This document shows positions 18,702-47,691 of a stretch of DNA of 64,000 nt, piece by piece. The stretch lies in NCBI RefSeq assembly GCF_057098645.1, contig NZ_CM169472.1. The stretch is one strand, 5' to 3'. The position numbers were made by a program, and so were the translations under genes. How positions within the stretch are numbered: the first letter of the stretch is position 1; each line of letters begins with the position of its first letter. The notes beneath the pieces were generated by a model. The model worked only from the letters and a program-made list of their open reading frames with translations. It made no database searches and was not told the DNA's origin.

Positions 18702-19268
18702 TCAGGGCGATTCATTGTTCTCATTCGCCGGAAATTTTCTATAAATGGTAGAAACGCCCACATCAAAAATCAGTGCAATACGCTGTCTTGATTCTCCGGC
18801 CTCGAGTAAACGTCCAATCTGTGCCCACTGTTCGGTAGTCAACTTAGGACGGCGTCCACCTACTCTGCCTTTAGCACGAGCTGCAGCCAGCCCTGCCCTG
18901 GTACGTTCAACTATCAGTTCGCGTTCCATTTCAGCCAGGGCACCCATGACATGAAAAAAGAAACGGCCCATTGGGGTACTGGTATCAATACTGTCAGTCA
19001 GACTTCTGAAATTCACGCCGCGCTGGCGCAACTCTTCTATCAGAGTAACAAGATGCCGCATACTGCGCCCCAACCTGTCCAGCTTCCAGACAACCAGTGT
19101 GTCACCTGCCGATAGTGTCCTGAGCAGTTTTTTAAGCCCCGGTCGGTCGGACTTCGTGCCGCTGATTTTATCCTCAAAAATCAGCTCACATCCTGCACAC
19201 TCCAGCGCGTTACGCTGCAATTCCGTATTCTGGTCATTTGTTGACACGCGGACATAGCCAATAAGCAT
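18702..19268 (-). CDS. Serine site-specific DNA invertase (Hin/Gin/Cin/Pin family)
   Basis: 188-aa ORF MLIGYVRVSTNDQNTELQ... with catalytic Ser region and C-terminal HTH (GVSTIYRKF); adjacent to the invertible tail-fibre segment. Confidence 0.85.
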   Translation of the reverse strand: MLIGYVRVSTNDQNTELQRNALECAGCELIFEDKISGTKSDRPGLKKLLRTLSAGDTLVVWKLDRLGRSMRHLVTLIEELRQRGVNFRSLTDSIDTSTPMGRFFFHVMGALAEMERELIVERTRAGLAAARAKGRVGGRRPKLTTEQWAQIGRLLEAGESRQRIALIFDVGVSTIYRKFPANENNESP

Positions 19269-19323
19269 GATGGATCCCCTGAATAAAAACCGGGGATGAT
19301 GCCAGTTAGCCGTAATCTCTGCA

Positions 19324-19349
19324 TTTTCTTAAACGTTGGTTTGGGAGAA
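19324..19349. repeat. Invertase crossover site (left), gix/hix-like
   Basis: TTTTCTTAAACGTTGGTTTGGGAGAA; about 20 of 26 positions match the inverted partner at 21269-21294. Confidence 0.5.
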
Positions 19350-19790
19350 GCGGCAAAACGAAATGTGGGCAACGGGGAAAACCAAATCCCTGATATGTCT
19401 TTCTGGACGGTTACTGGTGGCAATGGAAATTTTGTGATTCGTCAACCTGACGGACTAATCATTCAGATGGTTACTGTAAGTATAAGCGGTCCAGTGGCGA
19501 TGAATGGAATGACTGATAATGCTTATGCCATTACAGGTTCTAATAAGTCTTATATTGCCACAGCCACATTGCCCTTTGTATTTCCTAATAAGGTGCTGGG
19601 CGTTATCCCTCTGGTATCAACAACAGCTTATGGTGGTGTATCCAGTAATATTACAGGTTCATACGCGACGGCGGTTTGTTCTTTTGCCGCTGTCAGGGGG
19701 AATAATACGATTGTGTTCAAAGTCGACAAACCACTGAATGCAGCCTTTCCTTCAGATACCAGCGTCTCAGCGTTAATCATTGGACGGTAA
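19350..19790 (+). CDS. Alternative tail-fibre C-terminal segment (Hc'), expressed only after inversion
   Basis: ORF begins at the crossover site, lacks an N-terminal domain, and is followed by a tail-fibre assembly gene; mirrors the Mu G-segment S'/U' arrangement. Confidence 0.55.
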   Translation, partial: AAKRNVGNGENQIPDMSFWTVTGGNGNFVIRQPDGLIIQMVTVSISGPVAMNGMTDNAYAITGSNKSYIATATLPFVFPNKVLGVIPLVSTTAYGGVSSNITGSYATAVCSFAAVRGNNTIVFKVDKPLNAAFPSDTSVSALIIGR

Positions 19791-19792
19791 GA

Positions 19793-20236
19793 ATGAACTC
19801 AGTATTCTTTTCACCCGCAAGTAAAAGTTTTTATCTGCAAGAATTGTTTCCAGAATATGAGGATGCGGGAACGCTTCCTGATGATGTTATTGAAATTACC
19901 AGAGAAACATATGAGCAATTTCTTGGGCTGCATCCAGAAGGGAAAGAAATTGGCGCTGACAGTTCAGGACGGCCAATATGGATTAATTCCCCGCCGCCTT
20001 CAAAAGAGGATGAGATGCTGGCGGCTGAAATGAAAAAGATATCTTTGGTTTCAGAAGTCAATACCTACATCAATACCCATCAGTGGCCTGGCAAAGCTGC
20101 TATTGGTCGTCTGAAAGGTTACGAGCTGGAACAATATAATTTATGGCTGGATTATCTGGACGCACTGGAACTGGTTGATACCGCCAGTGCTCCAGATATT
20201 GAATGGCCTACGCCTCCGGTAGTTCAGGCCAGATGA
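19793..20236 (+). CDS. Alternative tail-fibre assembly chaperone (G'-like)
   Basis: 147-aa ORF with the conserved Tfa C-terminus ...LWLDYLDALELVDTASAPDIEWPTPP. Confidence 0.75.
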   Translation: MNSVFFSPASKSFYLQELFPEYEDAGTLPDDVIEITRETYEQFLGLHPEGKEIGADSSGRPIWINSPPPSKEDEMLAAEMKKISLVSEVNTYINTHQWPGKAAIGRLKGYELEQYNLWLDYLDALELVDTASAPDIEWPTPPVVQAR

Positions 20237-20813
20237 CATCCGGCGCGGTGCTGGTATCTGTTGCAGTCACCGCGTCAATGTAATCCAGCACAGCGTTAAG
20301 CCGGGTTGTTTCTGCCTGCGTCAGCTTCCGCCCGGCCTGCAATTTCAGCTGAATCAGACTAATGGAAGCCATAGCAGCATCAATCAGTGACTGGCGCCGT
20401 ACTTCTGCCGCGTCTACTGCGGCGTTATGCTGTGCCTCAGTATCGGTCACCCATTTCTCACCATCCCATTTATCGTATGACGTTAACGGGGCGATAGTGG
20501 TTGTATTTTCAGGGTAATCACCCGGAACTGTGATTTCTTTTGATTTTCCTGTTTCGGTGCTATAGACGATTTCACCGCGATGGTCTGGCACATATTCCCA
20601 TGAGTTAAAATCTGCAGAACGGCAAATTGCATAACCAGCTTTATATGAGCCAGGAGCATCTAAACAGGAACATGCCGGGATACCGACACCCACAGCAAGA
20701 TATTCAGTTGATGTGGAAATATATTCCCGTGTTTCACCATCATAATTATAAACGGTAATGTCTCCGGCCTTTGTGGCGATGAGTTCATTATTTAATACAG
20801 CTTTACTTATCAT
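20208..20813 (-). CDS. Tail-fibre assembly chaperone (gpG-like)
   Basis: 201-aa ORF with Tfa C-terminal motif ...LNAVLDYIDAVTATDTSTAPDVIWPELP; downstream of H. Confidence 0.75.
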   Translation of the reverse strand: MISKAVLNNELIATKAGDITVYNYDGETREYISTSTEYLAVGVGIPACSCLDAPGSYKAGYAICRSADFNSWEYVPDHRGEIVYSTETGKSKEITVPGDYPENTTTIAPLTSYDKWDGEKWVTDTEAQHNAAVDAAEVRRQSLIDAAMASISLIQLKLQAGRKLTQAETTRLNAVLDYIDAVTATDTSTAPDVIWPELPEA

Positions 20814-23833: not shown

Positions 23834-24179
23834 TCTCTGCTCCTGTTGATACGGAAAGGGACACAGGCACACCGTTATTCCGCCGCCCGGTCAGCTCCAC
23901 CACCATAGAACCGTCAAAGTTGCTGTTGATGGTGATGGAATCCAGCGTCAGCCGTGGCTCCCAGCGACTCAGCGCCACATACACTGCCGACATGACCTGC
24001 AGGCGTAATGCCGGATTTTGTGGCTGATCTATCAGTGCCGACAGTAGGGAACCATATTCCCGACGGGCAATGCGGCTACCCTGCGGCGTCAGCAGAATGT
24101 CCCGCACCGACTGGCGCAGATGGTCAATATCAGTAATGACTTTGCCGCTGGTATTGTTCATCCCGCTATAAAGCGTCAT
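23820..24179 (-). CDS. Baseplate wedge protein gpW-like
   Basis: 119-aa ORF, P2 W-like size and position. Confidence 0.75.
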   Translation of the reverse strand: MTLYSGMNNTSGKVITDIDHLRQSVRDILLTPQGSRIARREYGSLLSALIDQPQNPALRLQVMSAVYVALSRWEPRLTLDSITINSNFDGSMVVELTGRRNNGVPVSLSVSTGAENGSD

Positions 24180-24754
24180 ACCGGGCCTCCGGTTGTGTCG
24201 CCGCCTTTCAGGACGCCAGTATGCTGATGTGCATCAACCACAATTCCGTTAGAACTCATTGCACCGCCGCCCTGGGTAACGCCACCATTGATCACCACTT
24301 CGCTGTTAATGCGCGTGCGGTCAGCCTCCAGTACAAACTCATTGGTTTTCATGGTGATGTTGTCAGCGGCCTCAATGACCATTGATTTGATGCCCCTGAC
24401 ATACCAGCGCCCGGTGGCGGGTTCGTATTCAAACCAGCCACCGTCAGGATGTTCTGTCACGCAGGCGTCCGCCGACGTCGACGGTGGCGCGAACTGATTC
24501 GAATAGATGGCGGGCAGCGCAAACGCGGTTTCCAGATTGCCTCCCAGACTCAGCAGCACCACCTGCTCACCTTCCGATGGTTTCCACCATGTGCAGGCAT
24601 TACCCGCGCGCAGCGTCAGCCAGTTAATCCAGTTGGTTTCAAGGTCGCCCGTTTTCACCCGACAAAGCCAGTTTTCCCGGTCCACTTCGGTGACTACACC
24701 TGTGCGGATCAGATTGGTGATAAGGCGCATGATTTCGGTTAATTGTGCGTTCAT
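24176..24754 (-). CDS. Baseplate spike/assembly protein gpV-like
   Basis: 192-aa ORF upstream of W. Confidence 0.75.
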   Translation of the reverse strand: MNAQLTEIMRLITNLIRTGVVTEVDRENWLCRVKTGDLETNWINWLTLRAGNACTWWKPSEGEQVVLLSLGGNLETAFALPAIYSNQFAPPSTSADACVTEHPDGGWFEYEPATGRWYVRGIKSMVIEAADNITMKTNEFVLEADRTRINSEVVINGGVTQGGGAMSSNGIVVDAHQHTGVLKGGDTTGGPV

Positions 24755-24822
24755 AGGGAAAGGTTGCCATCAGGGGAAGAAAGGCGGCAGTGCTGCAACT
24801 TGTATCAGTGCTGATACAAAGA

Positions 24823-25269
24823 TCACCCCGCCAGCCATTGCAGAATCATGTCGCGGGTCATTGCCTCAACATCATCATTTACACCCAGCAGGCGGCGCTC
24901 TGCGTAACGAACCTCCGGTCCTTTGCGACTGACGCGATCACGCAGGCCGTAATGGTGAACACGGGCAATACGCTGCACCTTGCCTTCAAACTGTACGCTG
25001 GCAGAGTCGGCGCTGGCGGCAGTTTTCAGGTATTTTGTGGTGCGCAGCTTTGCAAACATCTGACGTTTGATGCGCCCCTTCTTGCTGCGTGCTGTTACCC
25101 TGCGCGGTTCATAACTGCTGCCATCTGGATTGCGCTGCATCCTGATATTCTGCTGCTGTGTCCGGCGCAGTTCCTGCGCCAGCTGGCGCATCATACGGCT
25201 TCTTGCGGCTGGCTCCAGATTCGCCAGCAAGGCACTCAGCCAGTCGTCCACCTTCTGCAATTCAGCCAC
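24823..25269 (-). CDS. Tail completion protein gpS-like
   Basis: 148-aa ORF overlapping the R stop. Confidence 0.7.
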   Translation of the reverse strand: MAELQKVDDWLSALLANLEPAARSRMMRQLAQELRRTQQQNIRMQRNPDGSSYEPRRVTARSKKGRIKRQMFAKLRTTKYLKTAASADSASVQFEGKVQRIARVHHYGLRDRVSRKGPEVRYAERRLLGVNDDVEAMTRDMILQWLAG

Positions 25270-25714
25270 GTTTCACCGTCCACATTTCTTCAGGTTTATC
25301 GGGTTCCGCTACAGCTTCAACACTCGACACACTGCCGTCAGTACTGACCAGCACACGCTCCGTCAGTTGCAGGTTAAGGCTGATATCACAGACATCGTTG
25401 CGCACAATATCCACCTCAAAGGTGAATAGTTTTTCCCGTAACGCCGGGTTATTGATGGCATCGGGCTGGTTATCACGCAGCCACAGCAAAACCGGGGCCA
25501 TCAGCAGATTCTGGTCGCCGCTGAAATCCTCAATCACCACGTTGAGGGTATAATGGTACTCCCATGACATGGAGCTGGCCCCCGTGGCAACCAGCGAACC
25601 GTTATCCACAAACAGATGCAGTTTGTCCGGGTTATTGCGGACATAAGGCACTGCTTTATTGAGGGCGTGGCGCAGGGACTGTGGTTTGTTCACTGTTTCG
25701 CTCCTGACACGCAA
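25262..25714 (-). CDS. Tail completion protein gpR-like
   Basis: 150-aa ORF downstream of the lysis cassette. Confidence 0.7.
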   Translation of the reverse strand: MRVRSETVNKPQSLRHALNKAVPYVRNNPDKLHLFVDNGSLVATGASSMSWEYHYTLNVVIEDFSGDQNLLMAPVLLWLRDNQPDAINNPALREKLFTFEVDIVRNDVCDISLNLQLTERVLVSTDGSVSSVEAVAEPDKPEEMWTVKRG

Positions 25715-25946
25715 TAATCATGTCCACTTTGTCTGCACAGACCGCCCAGGCGGCCTCCGTTTCATCCAGCAACGCATTCAGATCACCGTTAGTGCGCGGT
25801 GCTGCCTGCTCCAGCCGACACGGCGTCACTCGCGGACAACCACTGACGGTAAGCTGCACCTCCGGTGAGTGCCGGACGTTCCCGCAGCCGGATAATGTCA
25901 GCAGGCAAAGGAGTATCAGCCCAGCGGCGTAAATCCTCGTTCTCAC
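25656..25946 (-). CDS. LysC / Rz1-like outer-membrane lipoprotein spanin
   Basis: 96-aa ORF with lipobox (LLCLLTLSGC), starting in an alternate frame inside lysB and extending past its stop. Confidence 0.6.
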   Translation of the reverse strand: MRTRIYAAGLILLCLLTLSGCGNVRHSPEVQLTVSGCPRVTPCRLEQAAPRTNGDLNALLDETEAAWAVCADKVDMIIACQERNSEQTTVPAPRPQ

Positions 25947-26217
25947 GTTTCAGTTCCTCGATCCGGCGTTGTCGTTGTCTCAGCTGTGCGCTGGTCTGTT
26001 CTGCTTCGGCATAGAGCCGCGCCTGCTCCCGGTTATTGGTTTCAGTCAGAATGGACAGGCTGATAAGCTGGCTGTTGCTCTTTGCCAGTGCCTGGCTTTT
26101 GCTCTGCAGCTCGTCTGCCTGCGTGCTGATGGTCTGGCTGGCATCAGCCAGCCGCCACGTCTGCCAGCCCAGCGCCGCCAGTAATAACGCCAGCACAACC
26201 AGCAGCAACCGGTTCAT
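25789..26217 (-). CDS. LysB / Rz-like inner-membrane spanin
   Basis: 142-aa ORF with N-terminal TM helix and charged coiled-coil region. Confidence 0.65.
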   Translation of the reverse strand: MNRLLLVVLALLLAALGWQTWRLADASQTISTQADELQSKSQALAKSNSQLISLSILTETNNREQARLYAEAEQTSAQLRQRQRRIEELKRENEDLRRWADTPLPADIIRLRERPALTGGAAYRQWLSASDAVSAGAGSTAH

Positions 26218-26663
26218 GCTGCTACCTGTTGCGCCATCTGATTACGGGTGATCCAGAAGGCAATAACGGTCAGTAGATAAAAGACCAGGGTAATAGCCCA
26301 CCCCGTCCAGGCGAGACTTACAACAATCAGCAATCGCATCACCCAACTGGTAAATACGTTTTCTTTTCGGGTAATTGTCTTCAGCAAAGATGCCCTTAAC
26401 TCCTGCCAGAGCGGGCCATTCTTAATTAACGCAGCCAGTGCTACCGGAATTACCGCCCATGTCAGCAAACAGGCTACCCAAACGCCGGACGCTGCCAGTA
26501 CCGGAAAAATCCCCTGCGGATACACCATTGCTGCGATTAACAGCGCCATCCATAACATCAGAAACAGTCCGCTGATTAATTTCTTTTTCATTTCAGTTTG
26601 CTCCCTGTAAACACCAGGCCATCTCCCGCGCACGGCGGTTATCCAGCCCCTGATTAAAAACAC
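26214..26663 (-). CDS. LysA-like membrane protein (lysis regulator / antiholin candidate)
   Basis: 149-aa ORF with about 4 hydrophobic helices, between endolysin and lysB as in P2. Confidence 0.55.
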   Translation of the reverse strand: MFLIRGWITAVRGRWPGVYREQTEMKKKLISGLFLMLWMALLIAAMVYPQGIFPVLAASGVWVACLLTWAVIPVALAALIKNGPLWQELRASLLKTITRKENVFTSWVMRLLIVVSLAWTGWAITLVFYLLTVIAFWITRNQMAQQVAA

Positions 26664-27105
26664 CTTTCACATAAACCCAGCGCGGCAACTGTCGGCACGC
26701 ATCTGCCCAGCGCCGCTGATTGAGTAATTTCACCAGCGTGGAACTGCAGGCATTGCCCGTTCCCACGTTGAAGGCAAACGACACCGCAGCGTCATACACC
26801 TTCTGCGGCGGCTGTTGCTTCACACACCTTTCCAGCGCCCGCTCCACACGCAGCACGTTGGAGATCAGCCCTTCTGCTGCCTGTCGCTCCGTAATGGTTT
26901 TGCCGGGAATGACGCCTGACGTATTACCAATGCCGTCGGTCCAGACACCCGCGCTGCACTGATACGGCTGCAGACGACAACCTTCGTAATCGGCAATCAG
27001 TTTCAGCCCCTCCACGGAGGTGTGAAGCTGCTGAAAACCCGGCAGCGTGGCAGCAATAGCCAGCACGGCCCCGACAAGGCAGCGTTTAACGATTGATGGA
27101 TTCAT
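26593..27105 (-). CDS. Endolysin (lysozyme-like), possibly signal-anchor-release type
   Basis: 170-aa ORF with hydrophobic N-terminus (LVGAVLAIAATLP) and lysozyme-like body; occupies the P2 K position. Confidence 0.7.
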   Translation of the reverse strand: MNPSIVKRCLVGAVLAIAATLPGFQQLHTSVEGLKLIADYEGCRLQPYQCSAGVWTDGIGNTSGVIPGKTITERQAAEGLISNVLRVERALERCVKQQPPQKVYDAAVSFAFNVGTGNACSSTLVKLLNQRRWADACRQLPRWVYVKGVFNQGLDNRRAREMAWCLQGAN

Positions 27106-27301
27106 AGTCCTCCCGCGAGATCTGCCCGTCGCGCAGAAGCTGGTAGGCTTTGTGTTTGTAGTACCAGTTGATAGCCAGCATCAGCACACCAATCATCAGG
27201 CCGCCCAGCGTTGAGGCATCCTTGATGGACAAATCGCCCAGCCAGGCCAGCACGACGGCGATGCAATACGTGATAAAGGCGCTGATTCGCTCAAGCGTCA
27301 T
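27086..27301 (-). CDS. Holin (small two-TM protein)
   Basis: 71-aa ORF with two hydrophobic helices and charged C-terminus, immediately upstream of the endolysin. Confidence 0.65.
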   Translation of the reverse strand: MTLERISAFITYCIAVVLAWLGDLSIKDASTLGGLMIGVLMLAINWYYKHKAYQLLRDGQISREDYESINR

Positions 27302-27304
27302 AAT

Positions 27305-27508
27305 TCAGTCCCATAGCTGGACGGTCTGCACGGTGGTGGTGGTCGGAATGTCCGGCAGCTCCACCTGCAGCCCGTGAGGTAAAAAGGGGCCGTATTCGGC
27401 AAGCCCCGGATTTGCCTTCAGTACCTGCTCCGTGACACCCTGCGTGCGCCCGTAATGACGCCAGCAAAGCGCGTCCACCGTGTCATACTGATGCGCACGC
27501 ACTTTCAT
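27305..27508 (-). CDS. Tail protein gpX-like
   Basis: 67-aa ORF between L and the holin, as in P2. Confidence 0.7.
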   Translation of the reverse strand: MKVRAHQYDTVDALCWRHYGRTQGVTEQVLKANPGLAEYGPFLPHGLQVELPDIPTTTTVQTVQLWD

Positions 27509-28035
27509 CAGATAAGCTCCACTGTGCAGTGCGGCGCATCCTGCACCCGGCTGATGGCCCAGCGGGCGTCACGCCACAAATCACCGCTGGCTTCTGCCAG
27601 TTCTTCGCCCCGCTTCACACCGGATGCCGTGGCGTCATAGTCCTGGTAACGTTCGTTGAGCATGGCGCGTGCCCAGCAGTAAACCGCGTTGAAATAGTGC
27701 TGAATGCGCTCGCTTTTGCCGTCCAGTTGTTCCGCCGGGACTTCTGCCAGCGAGGCATACCCCAGCATCTGCTGGCGTCTGCGAAACTCATACAGCTCTG
27801 CGTTGACCTCCGAAATTGCCGACAGCGCAACCTGCTTTAAACGCGGCTGCGTCACCGTGCCATCAGTGCGCATCACGCTGCGAAACTCCGACAGGTCCAC
27901 ATCAGGCCAGAACGGCGTATTTCTGATGATTTCCGCCTGTTCCGGTGCCTGTTCTGGCGCAACAAACTTCATGCTGCTTTCTCCTGAAATAAAGGGCGGT
28001 GGACGGGGTTTTGATGTGGCAGTGCCTTTCGCCAC
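27508..28035 (-). CDS. Head completion protein gpL-like
   Basis: Central motif ...NAELYEFRRRQ... and C-terminal WRDARWAISRVQ resemble P2 L; true start may be the internal Met (MKFVAPEQ). Confidence 0.75.
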   Translation of the reverse strand: MAKGTATSKPRPPPFISGESSMKFVAPEQAPEQAEIIRNTPFWPDVDLSEFRSVMRTDGTVTQPRLKQVALSAISEVNAELYEFRRRQQMLGYASLAEVPAEQLDGKSERIQHYFNAVYCWARAMLNERYQDYDATASGVKRGEELAEASGDLWRDARWAISRVQDAPHCTVELI

Positions 28036-28067
28036 CCCGTGCCGCCCGTGCGCGGGGGCACGTTCTG

Positions 28068-28706
28068 TCAGCGGCTGTCATTGCGCAGTCTGCGCTCCAG
28101 CTGCTGTTTGTCTTTTTTCACGCCACAGCGGGGATCGAGCTGTAACGCATGGTTGAGATGATTAAGGGCGGAAGCCGGATTGCTTTCACTCAGAACAGCG
28201 CCAATCGCTTTATGCAGACGCGCCCGTGACTGGTCCGGCATATCCAGACCGTCTGTCAGCTCCAGCGTCTGCAGCAACAGATCGGCATCAAAGCCGGTGG
28301 CGGCAAGCATTGCGCTCTGCGCTGCATCTGCCATTTCCTCTGCCAGCACGGTCTGCACATTGCGGTTACCCAGCGGCATCACCCAGCCATGACGCAGGGC
28401 ATGACGCCCGATCTCCAGCGCTCCGGCATCAATGCGCCACAGCATCACGTACATCAGCACGTCATCCTGTTGAGCGCCTCCGGCAGCCAGGACGCCCTCC
28501 GCCCAGGCGGCATATTTCGGCAGCAGCTCCACCTTTATTTCCGCTTTTTTGACCGTGGACTGAACGCCCTTGAGACGGCGGCGGTCTTCCGCCAGTTGCA
28601 GCAGCATCAGGTCATAGCCAGATGCGTGGCGAACGCTGCCGCCCTCGCGGGCGGCCTGTTCAGCCTGAACGCGCAGGCGATGCTGCCGTGCGGGACTCAG
28701 GCTCAT
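28068..28706 (-). CDS. Terminase small subunit gpM-like
   Basis: 212-aa ORF between N and L. Confidence 0.75.
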   Translation of the reverse strand: MSLSPARQHRLRVQAEQAAREGGSVRHASGYDLMLLQLAEDRRRLKGVQSTVKKAEIKVELLPKYAAWAEGVLAAGGAQQDDVLMYVMLWRIDAGALEIGRHALRHGWVMPLGNRNVQTVLAEEMADAAQSAMLAATGFDADLLLQTLELTDGLDMPDQSRARLHKAIGAVLSESNPASALNHLNHALQLDPRCGVKKDKQQLERRLRNDSR

Positions 28707-28709
28707 AGG

Positions 28710-29768
28710 TTACGCTCCGGCTTCTGCTGCAGCGGCGCTGAAATCGCCAATCTGGATGTTTTCCACCAGTGCGGCGCAGCGGTAGTCCTCAACCACATAG
28801 GCTTCGTTAACGGATTCAAAGTTTTCAATCCGGTCACGTTTCGGGTTGTCGATAACTGAACGGCGGCGGGTGTCTTCCTGCCAGTAGATGGACAGGTTAT
28901 CCAGACGGGTGATTAGCAGCGCATTCGGCGGGAAGAACGGCGCACGCACGGCCTGCAGGCCACCCATGCGTTTCTGACTGATGATCATATCGGCAGCCAG
29001 TTTTTCACTGTTTTCCTGCTCTTTGTTGACCAGCGGGAAATACTTGTCAGACAGCAGTTCACGCCCGCAAATAACCACCAGATCGTCATCGTCCTGGTAA
29101 ACCACGTCGATAAGCTCATTGACGGCATCCATCACTACGGCGTCCAGGTTGGCATATTCGCCACCTTTCCCGACTTTCACCGCACCCGGTGTAGTTTCAC
29201 CGCCCGTGGTGGTGCTGCCCATGACGTGATCCGGTGCATCCTCACGGATTTTCTGCAGCCAGCCTTTATTCACATCCTGCAGCAGCGGGTTTTCGCTACG
29301 GTTGGAGGTTTTCGCACGCTTCACGCCGTTAAAGCCGATCATGATGCGGTCCAGTGCCTGACGTTTCACGATGGCGTCACGGATACGCACCTGGAAATCC
29401 TGAAACTTCGCCCACAGGTCCAGCTTCGCGTAGGTCAGCACCGTGTCAAAGTTGGTCTGCTCGCATTTATATTCCACATCGACCATCAGCGTCGGATCGA
29501 CAGGTTCACGCTCTTTCGCGGTGGTATCAGTGGTTCCGGCAATGGTGCTGCCAACACCCAGCCCCAGCAACTGACCGGACTGCTCAGTCACTGGCGTGAC
29601 GTTAATCAGTGTCAGGAAAGCGGCGGACTGCTGGATCTGGTCTTCCAGCGTCTGCTGCACGGACGGTTCGACGGTGAACTTGCTGGACAGTTCTTCAACT
29701 GCAACACCGTTCAGACGCGCCAGCTGCTGCAGGTAAGCGTTAAAAGCAAAGCGGGTATTCTTCTTCAT
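28710..29768 (-). CDS. Major capsid protein gpN-like
   Basis: 352-aa ORF downstream of the scaffold gene. Confidence 0.85.
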   Translation of the reverse strand: MKKNTRFAFNAYLQQLARLNGVAVEELSSKFTVEPSVQQTLEDQIQQSAAFLTLINVTPVTEQSGQLLGLGVGSTIAGTTDTTAKEREPVDPTLMVDVEYKCEQTNFDTVLTYAKLDLWAKFQDFQVRIRDAIVKRQALDRIMIGFNGVKRAKTSNRSENPLLQDVNKGWLQKIREDAPDHVMGSTTTGGETTPGAVKVGKGGEYANLDAVVMDAVNELIDVVYQDDDDLVVICGRELLSDKYFPLVNKEQENSEKLAADMIISQKRMGGLQAVRAPFFPPNALLITRLDNLSIYWQEDTRRRSVIDNPKRDRIENFESVNEAYVVEDYRCAALVENIQIGDFSAAAAEAGA

Positions 29769-29784
29769 CGGGTTTTGTGCTCCA

Positions 29785-30618
29785 TCAGCAATTGGTCAGA
29801 GTGTCAGCGGGGGCGTTACCGCCTGTTGCACGCTGGCGGTAGTCCTGGCGGCTGTCTTCATGACTCAGCTTGTCCACCAGTTCGTTAAAGGCGGTCTGCT
29901 GTGCCTGCAGGGCAGTCTCCAGCTCAGACAGGCGTTCTTCCTGCTCAGACAGGGATTTTTCGGTGCGTGCGCTCAGGTTCTGCTGCTCTGTGGCGACCAG
30001 CTCCACGGCCTTATGCACATCAGAGAACCGGGCGTCATCGGACTGCTCTTTTTTGGTAAACAGCGCCGTGACGCGGGCAAACAGGGACGGTTTGTCGTCC
30101 TGGATTTCTTCCAGTTCGATCACCGTTTCCTCTGCAGCGGTAAAGAGATTGGCAGGATTCTGCTTGCGGTTTGCCAGCGGGTTATGGGCTGCACTGGCGC
30201 TGAATGTCAGCATTTCCGTACCCAGACTGGCGGGATCATCAGTGGCAGCCAGGCCGACCAGGTAGGCTTTGCCCGTATCAGCGAACTTCGGGCTGACTTC
30301 CATAGAGGTGAATAATTTCTGGCCTTTTTTCACCAGTTCCACCAGGGACTCCGTTGGCTCAACGTCGGCATACAGCGCCATCTTGCCTGCCAGCGGACCT
30401 TCCGTGATTTCTTCAGCAAACAGCGCCGTCACCTTGCCGTAGCGGTTAAAGGTGCTGTCCGGCAGATAAGACTTGATGTGCTCAAGGTTAATCAGCGCGG
30501 TATACACCGCCGGGTTGTAGCTGGCTGCCATCTGTTCCAGCCATTCACGCTGGATTTCGCGTCCGTCGGTGGTGGCACCTTCCACCCCGATGCGAAAACG
30601 CTTTGCTTTCACTGTCAT
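29785..30618 (-). CDS. Capsid scaffolding protein gpO-like
   Basis: 277-aa ORF with acidic/coiled-coil C-terminal half, divergent from P. Confidence 0.8.
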   Translation of the reverse strand: MTVKAKRFRIGVEGATTDGREIQREWLEQMAASYNPAVYTALINLEHIKSYLPDSTFNRYGKVTALFAEEITEGPLAGKMALYADVEPTESLVELVKKGQKLFTSMEVSPKFADTGKAYLVGLAATDDPASLGTEMLTFSASAAHNPLANRKQNPANLFTAAEETVIELEEIQDDKPSLFARVTALFTKKEQSDDARFSDVHKAVELVATEQQNLSARTEKSLSEQEERLSELETALQAQQTAFNELVDKLSHEDSRQDYRQRATGGNAPADTLTNC

Positions 30619-33579: not shown

Positions 33580-34362
33580 TTAATCATTTTCTGGTTTGTT
33601 TGAAGTTTCATTTACAGGCTGGATCACATCCTTATTAAAATGGCGCGTTTGTTCGACTTTACCTTTTCTAGAAAGGCCTGCACCTTCTAAAATTGAATCG
33701 ATTTTATCGCCACCATTAGCTAAGAAATGCTTAAAATTTTCCGATGATAACATTTCCATTATAGGCGATGAATGGGTAGCTTCTTCAACAAATCTTAATG
33801 GCGGCTCCTCCAGTCGAGTAAGTGCATTACCAAATAACCTTTGGGTAAAGTCGCTATCAAGTTGGACAGCTTCTCTTCTATATCCCTCATAAGCTTTGGA
33901 TACTGAGGCCTTGAATTCATAATCCTCTGCCAATCTGAATCGCTGACCAATTTGTTTCGTTGCTAACCAAGCAAACCATAATGGTGCTCCAACACTTAAA
34001 ATGGAGAGTAAAAGTTGAATAGCTAACTTTATACCTGATGCGTCAGGGTTTGACAGATATGCTTCGAGAGCATGTAAACGCGTATAACCAACAGCAGCAC
34101 CTGCAACCAAAGCACCTATTAGTCCACATACCCACCAACGTATGCTCCGGTTTAATTTTTCTGCTTTATCTTGAAATGCCCCAGCCAAACCTTTTGAAGT
34201 AGTAGTTCTAAATGCCTCTTCACATTTATTAATATAACCCTGAGCTTCTTCACGGAGAGATTGTAAATAATCTTTTGCATCCTTGCTTGCATTCTGTTTC
34301 AGCGCCAAAATTTCTTGTCTGGCCTCATCTACGATTTTGGAGTTCTCTTCAGTCTCTTTAAG
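33580..34362 (-). pseudogene. 3' part of an IS1-disrupted cargo gene (two-TM protein of unknown function)
   Basis: Frame continues from the 8-bp IS1 target duplication; encodes two hydrophobic helices (WWVCGLIGALVAGAAVGY, LLLSILSVGAPLWFAWLA) and a C-terminal soluble domain. Confidence 0.6.
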
Positions 34363-34377
34363 GGTAATGACTCCAAC

Positions 34378-34881
34378 TTATTGATAGTGTTTTATGTTCA
34401 GATAATGCCCGATGACTTTGTCATGCAGCTCCACCGATTTTGAGAACGACAGCGACTTCCGTCCCAGCCGTGCCAGGTGCTGCCTCAGATTCAGGTTATG
34501 CCGCTCAATTCGCTGCGTATATCGCTTGCTGATTACGTGCAGCTTTCCCTTCAGGCGGGATTCATACAGCGGCCAGCCATCCGTCATCCATATCACCACG
34601 TCAAAGGGTGACAGCAGGCTCATAAGACGCCCCAGCGTCGCCATAGTGCGTTCACCGAATACGTGCGCAACAACCGTCTTCCGGAGCCTGTCATACGCGT
34701 AAAACAGCCAGCGCTGGCGCGATTTAGCCCCGACGTATCCCCACTGTTCGTCCATTTCCGCGCAGACGATGACGTCACTGCCCGGCTGTATGCGCGAGGT
34801 TACCGACTGCGGCCTGAGTTTTTTAAATGGCGGAAAATCGTGTTGAGGCCAACGCCCATAATGCGGGCGGTTGCCCGGCAT
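34378..34881 (-). CDS. insB: IS1 transposase InsB
   Basis: 167-aa [21 protein letters not shown]... matches IS1 InsB. Confidence 0.9.
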
Positions 34882-35075
34882 CCAACGCCATTCATGGCCA
34901 TATCAATGATTTTCTGGTGCGTACCGGGTTGAGAAGCGGTGTAAGTGAACTGCAGTTGCCATGTTTTACGGCAGTGAGAGCAGAGATAGCGCTGATGTCC
35001 GGCGGTGCTTTTGCCGTTACGCACCACCCCGTCAGTAGCTGAACAGGAGGGACAGCTGATAGAAACAGAAGCCAC
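34800..35075 (-). CDS. insA: IS1 InsA
   Basis: 91-aa ORF with zinc-finger [16 protein letters not shown]... matches IS1 InsA. Confidence 0.9.
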
Positions 35076-35130
35076 TGGAGCACCTCAAAAACACCATCAT
35101 ACACTAAATCAGTAAGTTGGCAGCATCACC

Positions 35131-35747
35131 TCTTTAAGCATGCCATTAATATTTCTGCAATGCTCAACTGCGCTATTGTAAACATTTTTAACTTCATCAT
35201 TTGTTTCACGAAGCATTTTTACTGTTGTCGGTAGATTCTCGGCTGCATCATATGCTTCATTTATAGTTTTAATTTTCTCTTCTATATTACCAGTTTCAGC
35301 TGCAATTGCAGATATACCTGAATTATATAATTCTAATCTGCGTAAAATTTGCTTTGGTAATAAATTTCTATCTTTCAGCCTCTCAAATGAAAAAAGGTCA
35401 TTAATCCTATGAGAGATATATAACATTGAAATAACATAAGATGGTATAGCGGTCTGTTGAACTGATGCGTTACCATTGTTTATATGATTAATATTTTGCT
35501 GAGCATGATCCAGAGTGTAAATGAGCGCATCAATTACTGCAATGTCATCTGAAGATGGTACAAATTCCTGCATCTGATTAATTCTATCAGATAACATTTT
35601 TGGTAGTTCTATCAGATCCTCTTTATGTAAAAAAGGAAATGTGTACGGCCCAAGGTTTATAAAATCTTCCACAGGGAATACAAGACCATTAAGTGTTGTA
35701 TGTAAATTATCTAGTTTCTCTTTTAATTCAGTTAGTTTTTCGTTCAT
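35131..35747 (-). pseudogene. 5' part of the IS1-disrupted cargo gene (N-terminal helical domain)
   Basis: About 205 native codons (MNEKLTELKEKLDNL...NINGMLKE), then the reading frame enters the IS1 inverted repeat. Confidence 0.6.
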
Positions 35748-37410: not shown

Positions 37411-39416
37411 TTAATACAGGTTCCGCCACTTATCATCTTCCTGCAAACGCTGGTTCCGATAGAAGATACGCAGGCCTGCTCCTGACGGAATACTGCCGCC
37501 GCGAAGGAGTAAATCGACCTCTTTCTCGCTGCCATCAAATCCTCTGGATTTCAGTTCATAGACGAGCTGCTGTCGTTGATGGTCTGTAATTCGCTGTTTG
37601 TAGTCTCTACGCCGTTTCGGTTTCACCAGACGTAACCTTGCAGCCAGTTCCCGGCGCTCCTTTTTGTTCATACTGTGCAGGTAATCGTGCAACTCCTTGT
37701 CATCCATGCGGGTAAAGTCCGTTCTGGGGTCCCCATCAGCTGATTTATCTTTCTCCTGTTGGTTCAAATTTTCAGCAAGGGGACAGTTATTGCCACGAGT
37801 CCAAGGGGCGCAAGCGCCCTGGTCGGCTGCCGCCTCCTGAACGTCAACGGCCTTACGAACCATTTTCCACTTCACTGCATGAGTACAAATCTTGCCCTCT
37901 GCAATGGGTGACCAGATGCCATAAATACGAATACCGTGATCGCCATAGGCGGTCGGCTCTTCGTTAATTTCATAAGCTGTTCTGATAAGGTGATATTTGC
38001 GGGGAACCAGTACGCCGCCCTGCTTCATAATGTAGGTGGCAAAACAACCAGCATCAGCAGCAGCCAGAATGGCATCAAGGCGCGGGTTATCCAGTACCGG
38101 CGCACCTGCTTTTTTGTCACCCTGTTGCCTTGCCGCCTGACCAGCCAGCAATCGCAATTCACGGTACGCCTGACGCCCCGGAATACCAAAGAAGCGAAAT
38201 TGCTGAACACGATGCAGAGACGCCCAGGCATTAACGTATTCAGCGTTATCACGCAGGGATTTACCCGTTTCCTTGCTGATTTCGCCAGCCAGACCACGCC
38301 CATCAATGTTCTTACTGATGTATTTCGCGATGTAGCTTGTCGGCGTTCCTTTTCGCGGGTTAATCAGCTCAGACTTAAAGCGCGGCCCCGTGTTATTGCC
38401 CAGCTCCTCACGGTCTTCACGGATAGCAAACTTACGCAACAATGCAGTAATGGCGCGGCGGTCTTTTTTGCGCATGAAACACAACAGGTGCCAGTGAACT
38501 GTGCCGTCATGATGCGGCTCAGCCACCCGCACGCCATACCAGCGCAACCCGGCTTTGTGCATCGCCTTACGAAATGCAGCAAACATACCGACCAGATAAT
38601 CGCTGCTTTGTCTTACCGTCGCATTTGTCCATGTCGGGTTGGGTCTGCCGTTATTGAGCGTGGAATGGAAACGTGACGGACAGGTAATGGTGTAGAAAAC
38701 GGCGCAGTCACCGCGCATTTCCGCGATAAGCTCCAGACCTTTAACACAGGCCATCATCTCATTGCGACGATGCGCCGGGTTGCTGCTGCTGGCGTTTACC
38801 ACATCTTCCATATCCAGCGCGTCTCCGTCTTCGTTCACCAGTTCATGAGAACGGAAAAACTCCAGTGACTTACGGCGCTGCTCACGTTTATGCATCACGG
38901 CTTCATAGCTGACATAGGGAGATGCTTTTTTGCTGACCAGGCAGACAGCACGCAACTGCTCTTCCCGCCATTCGCAACGCATCTTCCACAATTTCCGATA
39001 CCACCAGTCGGCGCACAGCATACGCGCCAGCGAACCCGGAATGAGTTCATAGGGCACGGGTTTACGGCGGTTTCTTTTCCGACGGAGTTGCTCAAACGCA
39101 GGCGGGATGACATCCAGACGCAGGGTTTCCGCTGCCACCTTTTCCCATGTCTTGCGGATTTCTTCTGGCTTAACGTCATCGGTGGCATACAAATCACCAC
39201 AAGCTGCATCAAGGCACATACTCATATGCGCAGCTACCAAGGTGGACAGGCGTTTCACCTGATCCTGACTCATTTCAGGCAGGATCAGCAGGCCGTCCAG
39301 CCCTTCATGGCTTGCCATAAAGCGAAAAGATGCAGATAGCTGACTGTCGCGTACATGCTCCAGTCGTTCCAGACATGGCTTAATCGTCTCACGTAAATAG
39401 CGGGAATAAGCCTTTG
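37411..39416 (-). pseudogene. Replication initiation endonuclease gene A, 3' portion (split by IS21-family insertion)
   Basis: 635-aa ORF with rolling-circle initiator motif ([11 protein letters not shown]); frame stays open upstream of the annotated Met as far as the IS boundary. Confidence 0.8.
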
Positions 39417-39515
39417 TGCGTATTCCGCTCTATTCGATCACGGATTGGCATCGAAGTCCGATCAGCGATTCGCATCCATTCGATCAACCGGGAACTTAAC
39501 TTTTTCTACCGCTTT

Positions 39516-40271: not shown

Positions 40272-40287
40272 ACTGTTGTTCCTTCTG

Positions 40288-41823: not shown

Positions 41824-42055
41824 AGTGCTCCTGGATTTTCTCTTTCTGGACATTGACGTCTCCACTGGTTTAAACACGGCAATGGAGACTGTGGTGAAAA
41901 GAGTTAATTCCCGGAGTGACTGGCAGGATGCCAATCAATGATCGGAAGCATGCCAAATCGTGATCGATTGTGATGCCAAACTGTGATCGGAGATGGATGC
42001 CAAATCATGATCGATTCGAATGCCAAACTGCGATCGATTCAGATGCCATTTTGCA

Positions 42056-42470
42056 CCTTTGGCCTGCCCAGGCTGCTGAAGTATTCAATACGTTGCATCA
42101 GCGGCTTGCTGATATGGGAAGGCTGGGCGTTGACGTCCGCCAGAATGACCATGTCTGAATTAAAACGCTGCTGCTCATGCGCCAGCTTTGCCCGGCTAAT
42201 GAGCTTATCCTGCTCCATTTCGCGCTGGACAGGATCACGTGATTCATTAAAGAAATAACGCTCCCAGACCTGATCACTCAGTGCCTCGCGGCGCAACTGT
42301 TCCTGCTCGTTATCGGCAGCGTACAGAGTGATCAGGTTTGAAAGCGTAGAAACCGGCGCAACTTCCGCCGGGTCCAGATAAGGGTTAATGGCCTTTTTCG
42401 GGCTGTTCCATGAGAACGCTGCGGCAGCCTCGTTAAAGCCGCAGCAGTTGTTCATATCGGCATGACTCAT
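42056..42470 (-). pseudogene. Replication gene A, 5' portion (upstream of IS insertion)
   Basis: ORF is in frame with 37411-39416 once the IS and one copy of the target duplication are removed; its last 8 codons in the track come from the IS end. Confidence 0.6.
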
Positions 42471-47603: not shown

Positions 47604-47691
47604 GTTGGCATTACCCCGTAATAACCACCACTGACCACCAACCCAACTTATTGTTTTTACTCTAACTTATTGTTTTCATTAACCCATTTAC

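What the first reader, a model, noticed from the sequence alone, without database searches (positions are those of the whole stretch)
26214..27301. Lysis cassette with a probable signal-anchor-release endolysin
The endolysin has a hydrophobic N-terminal segment (LVGAVLAIAATLP) ahead of the catalytic domain, and the holin is a short two-TM protein. That pairing is characteristic of pinholin/SAR-endolysin lysis.
Basis: inference. Interest (0 to 1): 0.25.

Follow-up and report, generated by a model that had tools for sequence, protein, structure and literature searches.

The report
P2-like prophage SAR-endolysin lysis cassette
This is an ordinary, already described set of cell-bursting genes in a P2-like prophage of E. 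coli, whose wall-cutting enzyme most likely carries a releasable membrane anchor like that of phage P1.

Summary
On the minus strand, 26214-27301 holds three tightly coupled genes, not two. They are a 71-aa two-TMD holin, a 170-aa GH24 lysozyme with a hydrophobic N-terminus, and a 125-aa multi-pass LysA homologue. The LysB/LysC spanin follows, down to 25656. All lie in the late operon of a P2/186-like prophage (window ~11.3-47.7 kb) in an E. coli chromosome.

The endolysin is a P1 Lyz-type SAR endolysin by every test available here:
- Lyz is its best solved relative.
- It has two basic residues, then an uncharged Gly/Ala/Thr-rich segment with the same composition as the Lyz SAR domain.
- The Lyz regulatory Cys triad is conserved (C9/C43/C50).
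- The AF2 model matches active full-length Lyz (TM 0.85).

The holin belongs to the HP1 holin family. HP1 Hol was experimentally called a pinholin. This family is a probable distant homologue of the phage 21 pinholin (hhalign 85%). Its TMD1 is not SAR-like and it has no dual start, so hole size stays open. A SAR endolysin works with either holin type.

The cassette occurs in 1040 of 5426 complete E. coli genomes. A 97.8%-identical copy (Klebsiella phage KP12) is already published as SAR-type. Verdict: correct, ordinary, already known. This prophage copy also has its replication gene split by an IS21-family element.

The parts
27086..27301 (-). Holin, 71 aa, class II (two TMDs, predicted N-in/C-in), HP1 holin family. 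ATG start 3 nt after the stop of tail gene X. No dual-start motif.
   Evidence: ORF. Pfam PF16080 E=4.3e-9, 36.7 bits against cut-off 28.8; PF04971 (P21 holin S) 23.2 bits, below cut-off 26. phrog_20 holin E=1.9e-26. RefSeq name 'HP1 family phage holin'. hhalign against the S21 family: probability 84.6%, E=6.9e-6.
27236..27286 (-). Holin TMD1 (ISAFITYCIAVVLAWLG, residues 6-22). It is short (17 uncharged residues between R5 and D23) but strongly hydrophobic.
   Evidence: Core KD 2.28 with 31% G/A/S/T, against S21 TMD1 at KD 0.64 and 63%, and HP1 Hol TMD1 at KD 1.44 and 47%.
27158..27217 (-). Holin TMD2 (ASTLGGLMIGVLMLAINWYY, residues 29-48). Its small-xxx-small-xxx-small pattern S30/G34/G38 aligns with G40/S44/G48 of S21.
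26593..27105 (-). Endolysin, 170 aa, GH24 (T4-lysozyme fold) muramidase of the P1 Lyz type. Its start overlaps the holin gene by 20 nt and is preceded by GGGAGGA.
   Evidence: Pfam PF00959 E=4.6e-40. Best solved relative 1XJT P1 Lyz, E=2e-26. AF2 pLDDT 92.8; Foldseek top hit is active Lyz 1XJT with TM 0.85 over 173 columns. Start context.
27034..27081 (-). Putative SAR (signal-anchor-release) domain CLVGAVLAIAATLPGF, residues 9-24, preceded by MNPSIVKR (two basic residues). C9 corresponds to Lyz C13.
   Evidence: KD 2.11 with 44% G/A/S/T, against the P1 Lyz SAR at 2.26 and 44%, and the HP1 Lys SAR at 2.26 and 56%.
26938..26985 (-). Catalytic and regulatory motif EGCRLQPYQCSAGVWT. E41, C50 and T56 correspond to the Lyz triad E42/C51/T57. 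C43 corresponds to Lyz C44, the partner in the caging disulfide.
   Evidence: E41, C43, C50 and T56 are invariant in alignment A1. HMMER alignment to 1XJT. Coordinates.
26214..26591 (-). LysA homologue, 125 aa, multi-pass inner-membrane protein and putative antiholin. Its start lies 1 nt after the endolysin stop. Its stop overlaps the lysB start (ATGA).
   Evidence: NCBIfam NF038378 E=1.2e-35; P2 LysA hits the same model at E=3.5e-35. phrog_162. Hydropathy. Junctions. The AF2 model has low confidence (pLDDT 64) and is not relied on.
25789..26217 (-). LysB, the i-spanin (Rz-like): N-terminal TMD plus a periplasmic coiled-coil domain.
   Evidence: TIGR03495 phage_LysB 174 bits against cut-off 92.75. 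phrog_89. 35% identical to P2 LysB over 75 aligned residues and 33% in a global alignment.
25656..25946 (-). LysC, the o-spanin (Rz1-like lipoprotein), in the +1 frame overlapping lysB and the following tail gene. GTG start with a GAGGAA Shine-Dalgarno sequence. Signal sequence MRTRIYAAGLILLCLLTLSG|C.
   Evidence: NF038368 P2_Rz1 124.7 bits against cut-off 27. Pfam LysC E=1.4e-15. 41% identical to P2 LysC over residues 1-92. Start context.

Best explanation
The interval is the inner-membrane and cell-wall part of the lysis cassette of a P2/186-like (Peduoviridae) prophage in an E. coli chromosome. It is read on the minus strand inside the late operon, in the order X (tail), holin, endolysin, LysA, LysB/LysC.

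Shown here: gene content, order and coupling; family memberships; conservation of the Lyz-type residues; and the fold.

Inferred mechanism:
1. The 170-aa GH24 lysozyme is exported by the Sec system through its N-terminus (two basic residues, then a 16-residue uncharged Gly/Ala/Thr-rich helix).
2. That helix is not cleaved. It holds the enzyme on the periplasmic face of the energised inner membrane in an inactive form.
3. As in phage P1 Lyz, the active-site Cys50 is caged in a C43-C50 disulfide while the enzyme is tethered.
4. When the membrane is depolarised, the N-terminal helix leaves the bilayer and its Cys9 thiol attacks the cage, giving C9-C43 and a free C50. The helix then folds into the enzyme body.
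5. The trigger is the 71-aa two-TMD holin of the HP1 family, which accumulates in the membrane and collapses the proton-motive force at a programmed time. I lean towards small holes (pinholin, about 0.55), but a SAR endolysin needs only depolarisation, so hole size is not critical.
6. LysA, homologous to the P2 antiholin, delays triggering.
7. The LysB/LysC spanin then disrupts the outer membrane.

In this particular prophage copy the replication gene A is split by an IS21-family element, so the cassette may rarely or never fire naturally.
For: - Context. The region is 100% identical to the annotated E. coli HS and RM14721 prophage cassette ('HP1 family phage holin', 'lysozyme', 'DNZ54_00345 family protein', LysB, LysC). 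It shows P2 gene order.
- Endolysin family and structure. PF00959 E=4.6e-40. The best solved relative is P1 Lyz 1XJT at E=2e-26, with the alignment starting inside the hydrophobic segment. The next full-length structural matches are the SAR endolysins R21 and DLP12 RrrD.
- Conserved residues. Alignment A1 of 19 sequences, including P1 Lyz and HP1 Lys, has E41, C43, C50 and T56 invariant and C9 at least 90% conserved, in register with Lyz E42/C44/C51/T57 and C13. Of 17 distinct diverged N-termini, 15 carry a Cys at the cytoplasmic edge of the hydrophobic stretch.
- N-terminal composition. KD 2.11 with 44% G/A/S/T equals the P1 Lyz SAR domain. True TMDs in the same cassette (LysA, LysB) have 25% G/A/S/T.
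- Fold. In the AF2 model (pLDDT 92.8) the N-terminus forms short helices packed on the body rather than one long TM helix. The top Foldseek hit is the active form of Lyz (TM 0.85 over 173 columns), against 0.57 for the truncated inactive form.
- Holin. PF16080 scores above its cut-off. HP1 Hol and Lys behaved experimentally as a pinholin plus a Sec-dependent SAR endolysin (PMC7312051). hhalign against the S21 family gives 84.6% probability across both TMDs, with the TMD2 small-residue zipper aligned.
- Pairing. In every Peduoviridae lineage sampled, this holin family sits next to a KRC-type SAR lysozyme.
- Published precedent. The 97.8%-identical cassette of Klebsiella phage KP12 was already interpreted as a SAR endolysin similar to Lyz (PMC9902359).
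- LysA. It hits the same NCBIfam model as P2 LysA, which is described as a four-TMD antiholin (PMC3091744 and PMC11413866).
- Spanins..
Against: - There is no experiment on this protein, and no dedicated signal-peptide or topology predictor was available here.
- The N-terminus contains A16-I17-A18, a formal -3/-1 signal-peptidase motif. Signal-peptide predictors call such domains signal peptides (reported for HP1 Lys in PMC7312051). T4 RI, long thought to have a SAR domain, turned out to have a cleavable signal peptide (PMC8385771, title and abstract).
- The E-x-C...C motif also occurs in soluble relatives without any N-terminal TMD. The Cys pair alone therefore does not prove caging.
- Against the pinholin lean: holin TMD1 is strongly hydrophobic (KD 2.28, 31% G/A/S/T), unlike the S21 SAR-like TMD1. 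There is no dual start. The PF04971 score is below its cut-off. The KP12 authors' heptamer model of the identical holin had low confidence (pLDDT about 51; PMC9902359).
- The prophage copy here has gene A split by an IS element, so function in situ is doubtful.
Confidence: 0.8

Rival explanations
1. Same cassette and same SAR endolysin, but the holin is a canonical large-hole class II holin rather than a pinholin, as with P1 LydA working with Lyz.
For: TMD1 is as hydrophobic as an ordinary TMD (KD 2.28, 56% L/I/V/F/M/W). There is no dual-start antiholin form. PF04971 scores below its cut-off. SAR endolysins are known to work with canonical holins (PMC9025707; PMC6116005).
Against: The holin is a member of the HP1 holin family, whose type member did not release beta-galactosidase (PMC7312051). 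It is a probable homologue of S21 across both TMDs, with the zipper positions aligned. In all sampled lineages it is paired only with SAR-type lysozymes, as expected if it cannot release a soluble enzyme.
Confidence: 0.4
2. The N-terminal segment is an ordinary Sec signal peptide cleaved by signal peptidase I (for example after A16-I17-A18). The lysozyme is then secreted as a soluble periplasmic protein and held inactive by some other means.
For: The segment has n-region/h-region architecture and an AXA motif (sequence). Predictors give signal-peptide calls for the homologous HP1 Lys (PMC7312051). T4 RI is a precedent for a mis-assigned SAR domain (PMC8385771).
Against: Cleavage would discard C9, which is conserved in 15 of 17 diverged N-termini and aligns with the Lyz C13 needed for activation. 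P1 Lyz carries the same C-A-I-A string (visible in the 1XJT alignment) yet is the prototype SAR endolysin (PMC9025707, PMC6116005). The hydrophobic stretch continues 6 residues past the AXA, and the following LP-x-F is conserved. AF2 packs residues 6-28 into the fold with pLDDT above 90, and the model matches full-length active Lyz.
Confidence: 0.08
3. LysA here is not an antiholin of this holin. It is a general regulator, for example of SAR release, the spanin or membrane energetics. It is kept because it belongs to the X-LysB-LysC backbone.
For: Between P2 and Erwinia phage EtG, X (73%), LysA (39%) and LysB (59%) are conserved. The holin and endolysin are unrelated (17-21%) and are instead homologous to the window pair (30% and 61%). 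LysA therefore tracks the backbone, not the holin. lysA is translationally coupled to lysB by ATGA. Some 186-like phages with the same holin family lack LysA.
Against: P2 LysA is described in the literature as an antiholin (PMC3091744, PMC11413866). From my memory of To et al. 2013, which I could not read here, it acts on Y. The window LysA is very diverged from P2 LysA (27% identity), which leaves room for co-adaptation to a new holin.
Confidence: 0.2
4. The cassette is a non-functional relic of a defective prophage.
For: Replication gene A is split by an IS21-family element and a cargo gene is split by IS1 in this copy.
Against: All five lysis ORFs are intact and 100% identical over the 2-kb query to those in other E. 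coli genomes that lack these insertions. The IS insertions look recent. Relic status would not change what the genes are.
Confidence: 0.1

Closest known systems
Phage P1 endolysin Lyz (PDB 1XJT active, 1XJU inactive), the prototype SAR endolysin activated by disulfide isomerisation
   Same: GH24 fold. N-terminal basic residues followed by a weakly hydrophobic uncharged helix of the same composition. The residue set E/C/C/T plus the SAR cysteine is in register (C9/E41/C43/C50/T56 against C13/E42/C44/C51/T57). The full-length model superposes on active Lyz with TM 0.85.
   Different: Only 35-37% identical. It lacks the 11-residue insertion of Lyz and HP1 Lys after the NVG motif. Genomic context differs: here a compact P2-type cassette directly downstream of its holin, whereas P1 lyz is in an operon unlinked to its main holin lydA (PMC9025707). 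There is no experimental data for this protein.
Haemophilus phage HP1 hol/lys (pinholin plus SAR endolysin; PMC7312051)
   Same: Both are Peduoviridae. The holin belongs to the same Pfam family (PF16080). The holin gene overlaps the start of a Lyz-type lysozyme gene that has a Cys-containing N-terminal TMD.
   Different: The holins are only recognisable as related at profile level (BLASTP 21% identity, E=2.6). HP1 Hol TMD1 is much less hydrophobic (KD 1.44 against 2.28). No gene lies between lys and the LysB-like orf25 in the HP1 annotation, and HP1 is reported to have no antiholin (PMC7312051). The endolysins are 34% identical.
Phage 21 S21 pinholin / R21 SAR endolysin
   Same: Both holins are 71-aa class II holins. 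hhalign gives 84.6% probability over both TMDs. They share the N-terminal (D/E)(K/R)IS...AY motif and the TMD2 small-xxx-small zipper positions. The R21 fold is among the top structural matches for the endolysin.
   Different: S21 TMD1 is SAR-like (63% G/A/S/T) and 6 residues longer, and S21 has a dual start (MKSM). The window holin has neither feature. PF04971 scores below its cut-off. In the solved-structure search the endolysin scores far better against P1 Lyz (E=2e-26) than against R21 (E=1e-17). From memory: R21 is activated by SAR-driven refolding rather than by the Lyz Cys switch.
Phage P2 lysis cassette (Y, K, lysA, lysB, lysC)
   Same: Same position after tail gene X and the same order. 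LysA, LysB and LysC are homologous.
   Different: P2 Y is a 93-aa holin described as having three TMDs (PMC3091744). P2 K has no hydrophobic N-terminal segment (sequence). Both are unrelated to the window holin and endolysin. The holin plus endolysin pair has been swapped as a two-gene module.
Klebsiella phage KP12 peg.316-320 (PMC9902359) and Escherichia phage 500465-1 (Wadgaonvirus)
   Same: 97.8-98% DNA identity over the whole cassette and a 100% identical holin. The KP12 endolysin was already interpreted as a Lyz-like SAR endolysin from an AlphaFold model.
   Different: Essentially none at sequence level. The published work did not test secretion or release, and its spot-test result is described inconsistently within the paper.

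Membership tests
SAR endolysin (P1 Lyz type) | Muralytic catalytic domain of the T4-lysozyme/GH24 type with the E-8aa-(D/C)-5aa-T triad | tested here: met
   PF00959 E=4.6e-40. E41, C50 and T56 are invariant in A1.
SAR endolysin (P1 Lyz type) | Short N-terminal cytoplasmic tail with 2-3 basic residues, followed by an uncharged TMD rich in weakly hydrophobic residues (definition as stated in PMC9239132) | tested here: met
   K7 and R8, then C9-F24. KD 2.11 with 44% G/A/S/T, equal to the P1 Lyz SAR. LysA and LysB TMDs in the same cassette have 25%.
SAR endolysin (P1 Lyz type) | Regulatory cysteines: one in the SAR domain plus the caging pair flanking the active site (Lyz C13, C44, C51) | tested here: met
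   C9, C43 and C50 are in register with Lyz. A SAR-domain Cys is present in 15 of 17 diverged N-termini.
SAR endolysin (P1 Lyz type) | The N-terminal domain is retained in the mature enzyme and refolds into the body | tested here: inconclusive
   AF2 packs residues 6-28 with pLDDT above 90, and the model matches full-length active Lyz (TM 0.85) better than the truncated form (0.57). A model cannot show that signal-peptidase cleavage is absent.
SAR endolysin (P1 Lyz type) | Sec-dependent export, membrane tethering, and release on loss of proton-motive force | not testable with these tools
   Requires expression, fractionation, and SecA and uncoupler experiments. Shown for the homologues P1 Lyz and HP1 Lys in the literature (PMC7312051, PMC9025707).
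HP1 holin family (Pfam PF16080) | Profile match above the curated threshold | tested here: met
   36.7 bits against cut-off 28.8, E=4.3e-9. The RefSeq name agrees.
Class II holin | Small protein with two TMDs, N-in/C-in, and a charged C-terminal tail | tested here: met
   Two uncharged stretches, 6-22 and 29-48. The loop GDLSIKDAS has net charge -1. The C-terminus begins KHK, and R56 follows after AYQLL (sequence). Topology is inferred from the positive-inside rule.
Pinholin (S21 type) | Homology to S21 | tested here: inconclusive
   hhalign probability 84.6%, E=6.9e-6 over 51 columns. PF04971 scores 23.2 bits, below its cut-off of 26.
Pinholin (S21 type) | TMD1 is itself a SAR domain (weakly hydrophobic) able to leave the membrane | tested here: not met
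   KD 2.28 with 31% G/A/S/T, against 0.64 and 63% for S21. It is, however, short at 17 residues.
Pinholin (S21 type) | Dual-start motif producing an antiholin isoform | tested here: not met
   There is a single ATG and no in-frame start upstream. 186-like relatives do have MGL(K/S/T)M.
Pinholin (S21 type) | Small-residue (glycine) zipper in TMD2 | tested here: met
   S30/G34/G38 align with G40/S44/G48 of S21.
Pinholin (S21 type) | Holes too small to pass a soluble endolysin | not testable with these tools
   Needs a complementation test with lambda R or a leakage assay. The indirect comparative hint is that the family is always paired with SAR lysozymes.
P2 LysA family (NCBIfam NF038378) | Profile match above threshold, shared with P2 LysA, and a multi-pass membrane protein encoded between the endolysin gene and lysB | tested here: met
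   122.4 bits against cut-off 40; P2 LysA scores 120.9 bits on the same model. Position shown. Antiholin activity itself was not tested.
Two-component spanin LysB/LysC (overlapped architecture) | An i-spanin with an N-terminal TMD, plus an o-spanin lipoprotein encoded in the +1 frame overlapping it | tested here: met
   TIGR03495 174 bits and NF038368 124.7 bits. Lipobox LSG|C with Gly at position +2.

The most novel reading that the evidence does not exclude
The LysA-family multi-pass membrane protein may not be an antiholin tied to one holin. In Peduoviridae it is inherited with the X-LysB-LysC backbone, while the holin plus endolysin pair is exchanged as a two-gene module (P2 Y/K against HP1-type holin plus SAR lysozyme). 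It may therefore set lysis timing through something common to both systems, such as membrane energetics, the spanin, or release of membrane-tethered enzyme, rather than by binding a specific holin. A second, related possibility is that this holin is a pinholin that works without expelling its strongly hydrophobic TMD1. That would be a variant of the S21 mechanism.
Probability: 0.2. Interest if true: 0.4.

Novelty: already known. Interest (0 to 1): 0.1.

Why it matters
It matters little as a discovery. The cassette is present in about one in five complete E. coli genomes, is annotated in RefSeq, and a near-identical copy has been discussed in print as a SAR endolysin.

Its practical value is in annotation and engineering:
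- The enzyme is a secreted, membrane-tethered lysozyme. Full-length expression is expected to be toxic, and its activity should depend on a Cys switch.
- The neighbouring LysA homologue is widely mislabelled 'endolysin' in PHROG-based phage annotations.
- The RefSeq LysC start appears to cut off its lipoprotein signal.

The comparative point that the holin and endolysin swap as a module while LysA stays with the backbone gives a cheap, testable question about what LysA really acts on.

Tried and rejected
- Other signal types. A lipoprotein reading of the endolysin N-terminus is rejected because C9 precedes the hydrophobic stretch rather than following a lipobox. A Tat signal is rejected because there is no twin-arginine motif. 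Both follow from the sequence.
- Internal start for a soluble isoform. The only candidate start codons in the first 40 codons are GTG at V14 and V31. By my reading of the sequence, the GTG at V31, the one lying downstream of the hydrophobic segment, has no Shine-Dalgarno match before it. I did not pursue this further.
- Wider sampling of holin neighbourhoods. With alignment A2 the search failed because the alignment was too diverse. With A4 it returned only 80 loci with a 100%-identical holin. The pairing test therefore rests on six lineages taken from the phage collection.
- AF2 of LysA. A 3-sequence alignment gave pLDDT 64 and pTM 0.33. This is too weak to count TMDs, so I did not use it.
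- Papers I could not read: To et al. 2013 (P2 Y/LysA), Kuty et al. 2010 and Sun et al. 2009 are not held. Statements about them are from memory or from secondary citations.
- The promoter and terminator scan of 24000-30500 found nothing above shuffled expectation on the coding strand. This is consistent with a position internal to the late operon.
- The 296-aa endolysin-LysA 'fusion' proteins in the databases were considered as a programmed frameshift. I rejected this because the frame switches at different codons in different entries. They are most likely assembly indels or pseudogenes.
- PADLOC and Pfam gave no hits on the split cargo gene halves or the 243-aa ORF near the portal gene.
Full report
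**What is there**

On the minus strand, window 26214-27301 contains three tightly packed ORFs:
- 27086-27301: 71 aa.
- 26593-27105: 170 aa. Its start overlaps the previous gene by 20 nt and is preceded by GGGAGGA.
- 26214-26591: 125 aa. Its start lies 1 nt after the previous stop, and its stop overlaps the next start as ATGA.

Tail gene X lies immediately upstream (27305-27508, Pfam Phage_tail_X). Downstream are LysB (25789-26217) and the +1-frame overlapping LysC (25656-25946). This is the phage P2 order X-Y-K-lysA-lysB-lysC.

**Context**

The 2-kb region is 100% identical to annotated prophage genes in E. coli HS and RM14721. RefSeq names them 'HP1 family phage holin', 'lysozyme', 'DNZ54_00345 family protein', LysB and LysC. 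It is 98% identical to Escherichia phage 500465-1 (Peduoviridae, Wadgaonvirus) and to Klebsiella phage KP12. It matches 1040 of 5426 complete E. coli genomes.

The prophage occupies about 11.3-47.7 kb of the window. Its flanks are E. coli core genes, with hchA on one side and hprS/hprR on the other.

**The endolysin**

- Pfam Phage_lysozyme covers residues 39-161 (E=4.6e-40).
- The best solved relative is P1 Lyz (1XJT, E=2e-26), and the alignment starts inside the hydrophobic segment. R21 and DLP12 RrrD, also SAR endolysins, are matched too.
- In a 19-sequence alignment including P1 Lyz and HP1 Lys, E41, C43, C50 and T56 are invariant and C9 is at least 90% conserved. These are in register with Lyz E42, C44, C51, T57 and C13.
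- Among 50%-clustered relatives with an N-terminal hydrophobic extension, 15 of 17 distinct diverged N-termini carry a Cys at the cytoplasmic edge of the stretch, just after the basic residues. A conserved (L/M/I)P-x-(F/Y) recurs at the end of the stretch in many of them.
- The segment C9-F24 has KD 2.11 and 44% Gly/Ala/Ser/Thr. This is the same as the Lyz SAR domain (2.26, 44%) and close to HP1 Lys (2.26, 56%). The real TMDs of LysA and LysB have 25%.
- An AF2 model built on the alignment has pLDDT 92.8. The N-terminus is modelled as short helices packed on the body, not as one long helix.
- The top Foldseek hit in the PDB is the active full-length form of Lyz (TM 0.85 over 173 columns), followed by RrrD and full-length R21. 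The truncated inactive Lyz gives 0.57.

These results meet every sequence and structure criterion for a Lyz-type SAR endolysin. They cannot show export, tethering, release or absence of cleavage.

**Cleavable signal peptide?**

The string A16-I17-A18 is a formal signal-peptidase motif. Predictors call the HP1 Lys N-terminus a signal peptide (PMC7312051). T4 RI is a cautionary precedent (PMC8385771).

Against cleavage:
- It would remove the conserved C9.
- P1 Lyz has the same C-A-I-A string and is the prototype SAR endolysin.
- The hydrophobic stretch and the conserved LP-x-F continue past the motif.
- The model integrates the segment into the fold.

I put this rival at about 0.08. One caveat applies to the caging argument. 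The E-x-C...C motif also occurs in soluble relatives with no TMD, so the Cys pair alone is not proof of caging.

**The holin**

- It matches Pfam PF16080 (HP1 holin family) above threshold. It matches PF04971 (P21 holin S) below threshold.
- It has two uncharged stretches, 6-22 and 29-48, separated by an acidic loop, with a basic stretch after TMD2. This gives the class II N-in/C-in arrangement.
- HP1 Hol, the family's type member, killed cells without lysis and did not release beta-galactosidase. HP1 Lys lysed E. coli on its own, and phage release was azide-sensitive (PMC7312051).
- A profile-profile comparison of this holin family (A4) with the S21 family (A3) gives 84.6% probability (E=6.9e-6) across both TMDs. 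S30/G34/G38 align with the S21 zipper G40/S44/G48, and S21 carries a 6-residue insertion in TMD1. I confirmed my recalled S21 sequence at 100% identity in the phage 21 record.
- In every Peduoviridae lineage I sampled, the holin is adjacent to a KRC-type SAR lysozyme. The lineages are the window type, the Fels-2/SopEPhi type, Yersinia YenM_06.16-2, Erwinia EtG, the 186-like Yersinia and Klebsiella phages, and HP1.

Against an S21-like mechanism:
- TMD1 here is strongly hydrophobic (KD 2.28, 31% G/A/S/T, against 0.64 and 63% for S21).
- There is no dual start, although the 186-like relatives start MGL(K/S/T)M.
- The KP12 authors' heptamer model of the identical protein had low confidence.

SAR endolysins work with canonical holins as well as pinholins, as shown for P1 LydA and LydD (PMC9025707; PMC6116005). 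The pairing therefore does not decide hole size. I lean towards pinholin at about 0.55.

**LysA and the spanins**

The 125-aa protein and P2 LysA both hit NCBIfam NF038378 at E of about 1e-35. P2 LysA is described as a four-TMD antiholin (PMC3091744; PMC11413866). LysB and LysC pass their NCBIfam equivalog thresholds. LysC from the GTG at 25946 has a proper lipoprotein signal ending LSG|C.

**Module swap**

I compared P2, Erwinia phage EtG and the window.

| Protein | P2 vs EtG | Window vs EtG |
|---|---|---|
| X | 73% | 61% |
| LysA | 39% | 29% |
| LysB | 59% | 24% |
| Holin | 17% (unrelated) | 30% |
| Endolysin | 21% (unrelated) | 61% |

The holin plus endolysin pair is thus exchanged as a two-gene unit inside a conserved frame, and LysA tracks the frame rather than the holin. 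This is the basis of the novel case.

**Verdict**

The element is a common, annotated cassette that has already been discussed in print (KP12, PMC9902359; HP1, PMC7312051). Novelty is 'already known' and interest is low.

In this window the prophage has an IS21-family element in replication gene A and an IS1 in a cargo gene. The intact cassette may therefore be stranded in a defective prophage.

Noticed in passing
window 39417-42055 (IS); flanking gene halves 37411-39318 and 42039-42470, minus strand: An IS21-family element of about 2.64 kb is inserted in the prophage replication gene A. It carries an istA-like ORF (40288-41934; rve and Mu-transposase C domains) and an istB-like ORF (39516-40514; IstB_IS21). 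The insertion is absent from the otherwise 99.9%-identical prophage of E. coli RM14721. This prophage copy is probably replication-defective.
   Followed up: yes
window 34363-35129; flanking ORFs 33580-34308 and 35109-35747, minus strand: An IS1 copy (InsB ORF 34378-34881) splits a 463-aa hypothetical cargo gene next to the portal gene. A 9-bp overlap in the alignment looks like a target duplication. The gene halves have no Pfam or PADLOC hit. Its position in a P2-type variable region suggests an uncharacterised accessory gene, possibly for defence.
   Followed up: partly
window 26214-26591 (-) and homologues in phage records (e.g. NC_049342 gp22, NC_047818, P2 lysA in NC_001895): The LysA-family multi-pass membrane protein is labelled 'endolysin' in PHROG-based annotations (phrog_162) and in several RefSeq phage records. 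It has no Pfam-A match at all, hence no recognisable catalytic domain. This looks like a propagated annotation error.
   Followed up: partly
window 25656-25946 (-): RefSeq annotates LysC as 249 nt (start at window 25904). That leaves only 6 residues before the lipobox Cys. The GTG at 25946 has a GAGGAA Shine-Dalgarno sequence and gives MRTRIYAAGLILLCLLTLSGC, collinear with the 96-aa P2 LysC. It is the more plausible start.
   Followed up: partly
protein database entries P0006, P0012, P0015, P0018 (296 or 277 aa), P0003 (235 aa), P0028 (197 aa): Many singleton database proteins fuse the endolysin to LysA, or the holin to the endolysin. The frame changes at different codons in different entries. 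This points to assembly indels or independent pseudogenes rather than programmed frameshifting.
   Followed up: partly
L006, L007, L008, L009 positions 1495-1716 (186-like / Eganvirus and Duonihilunusvirus phages): Holins of the same family in 186-like phages begin MGL(K/S/T)MEKI. This is a two-Met arrangement reminiscent of the S21 dual start MKSMDKI. The window holin starts at the position of the second Met. Several of these phages have no gene between the endolysin gene and the i-spanin gene, so they lack LysA.
   Followed up: no
window ~11322 and ~47691-47713 (prophage ends); L005: The same prophage (99.9% identity, including the integrase gene) sits between ybjL and rcdA in E. coli RM14721 and HS. 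In this window it sits at the hchA / hprS locus. That site is empty in O145:H28 genomes, where the two flank matches overlap by 8 bp. This suggests use of more than one attachment site, as is known for P2. No tRNA gene was found in the window.
   Followed up: partly
window ~18702-20810 (from L005 13103-15211 plus offset 5599): A small serine-type 'recombinase family protein' gene lies next to oppositely oriented tail-fibre-assembly genes and the tail-fibre gene. This looks like an invertible host-range segment of the Mu Gin / P1 Cin kind.
   Followed up: no
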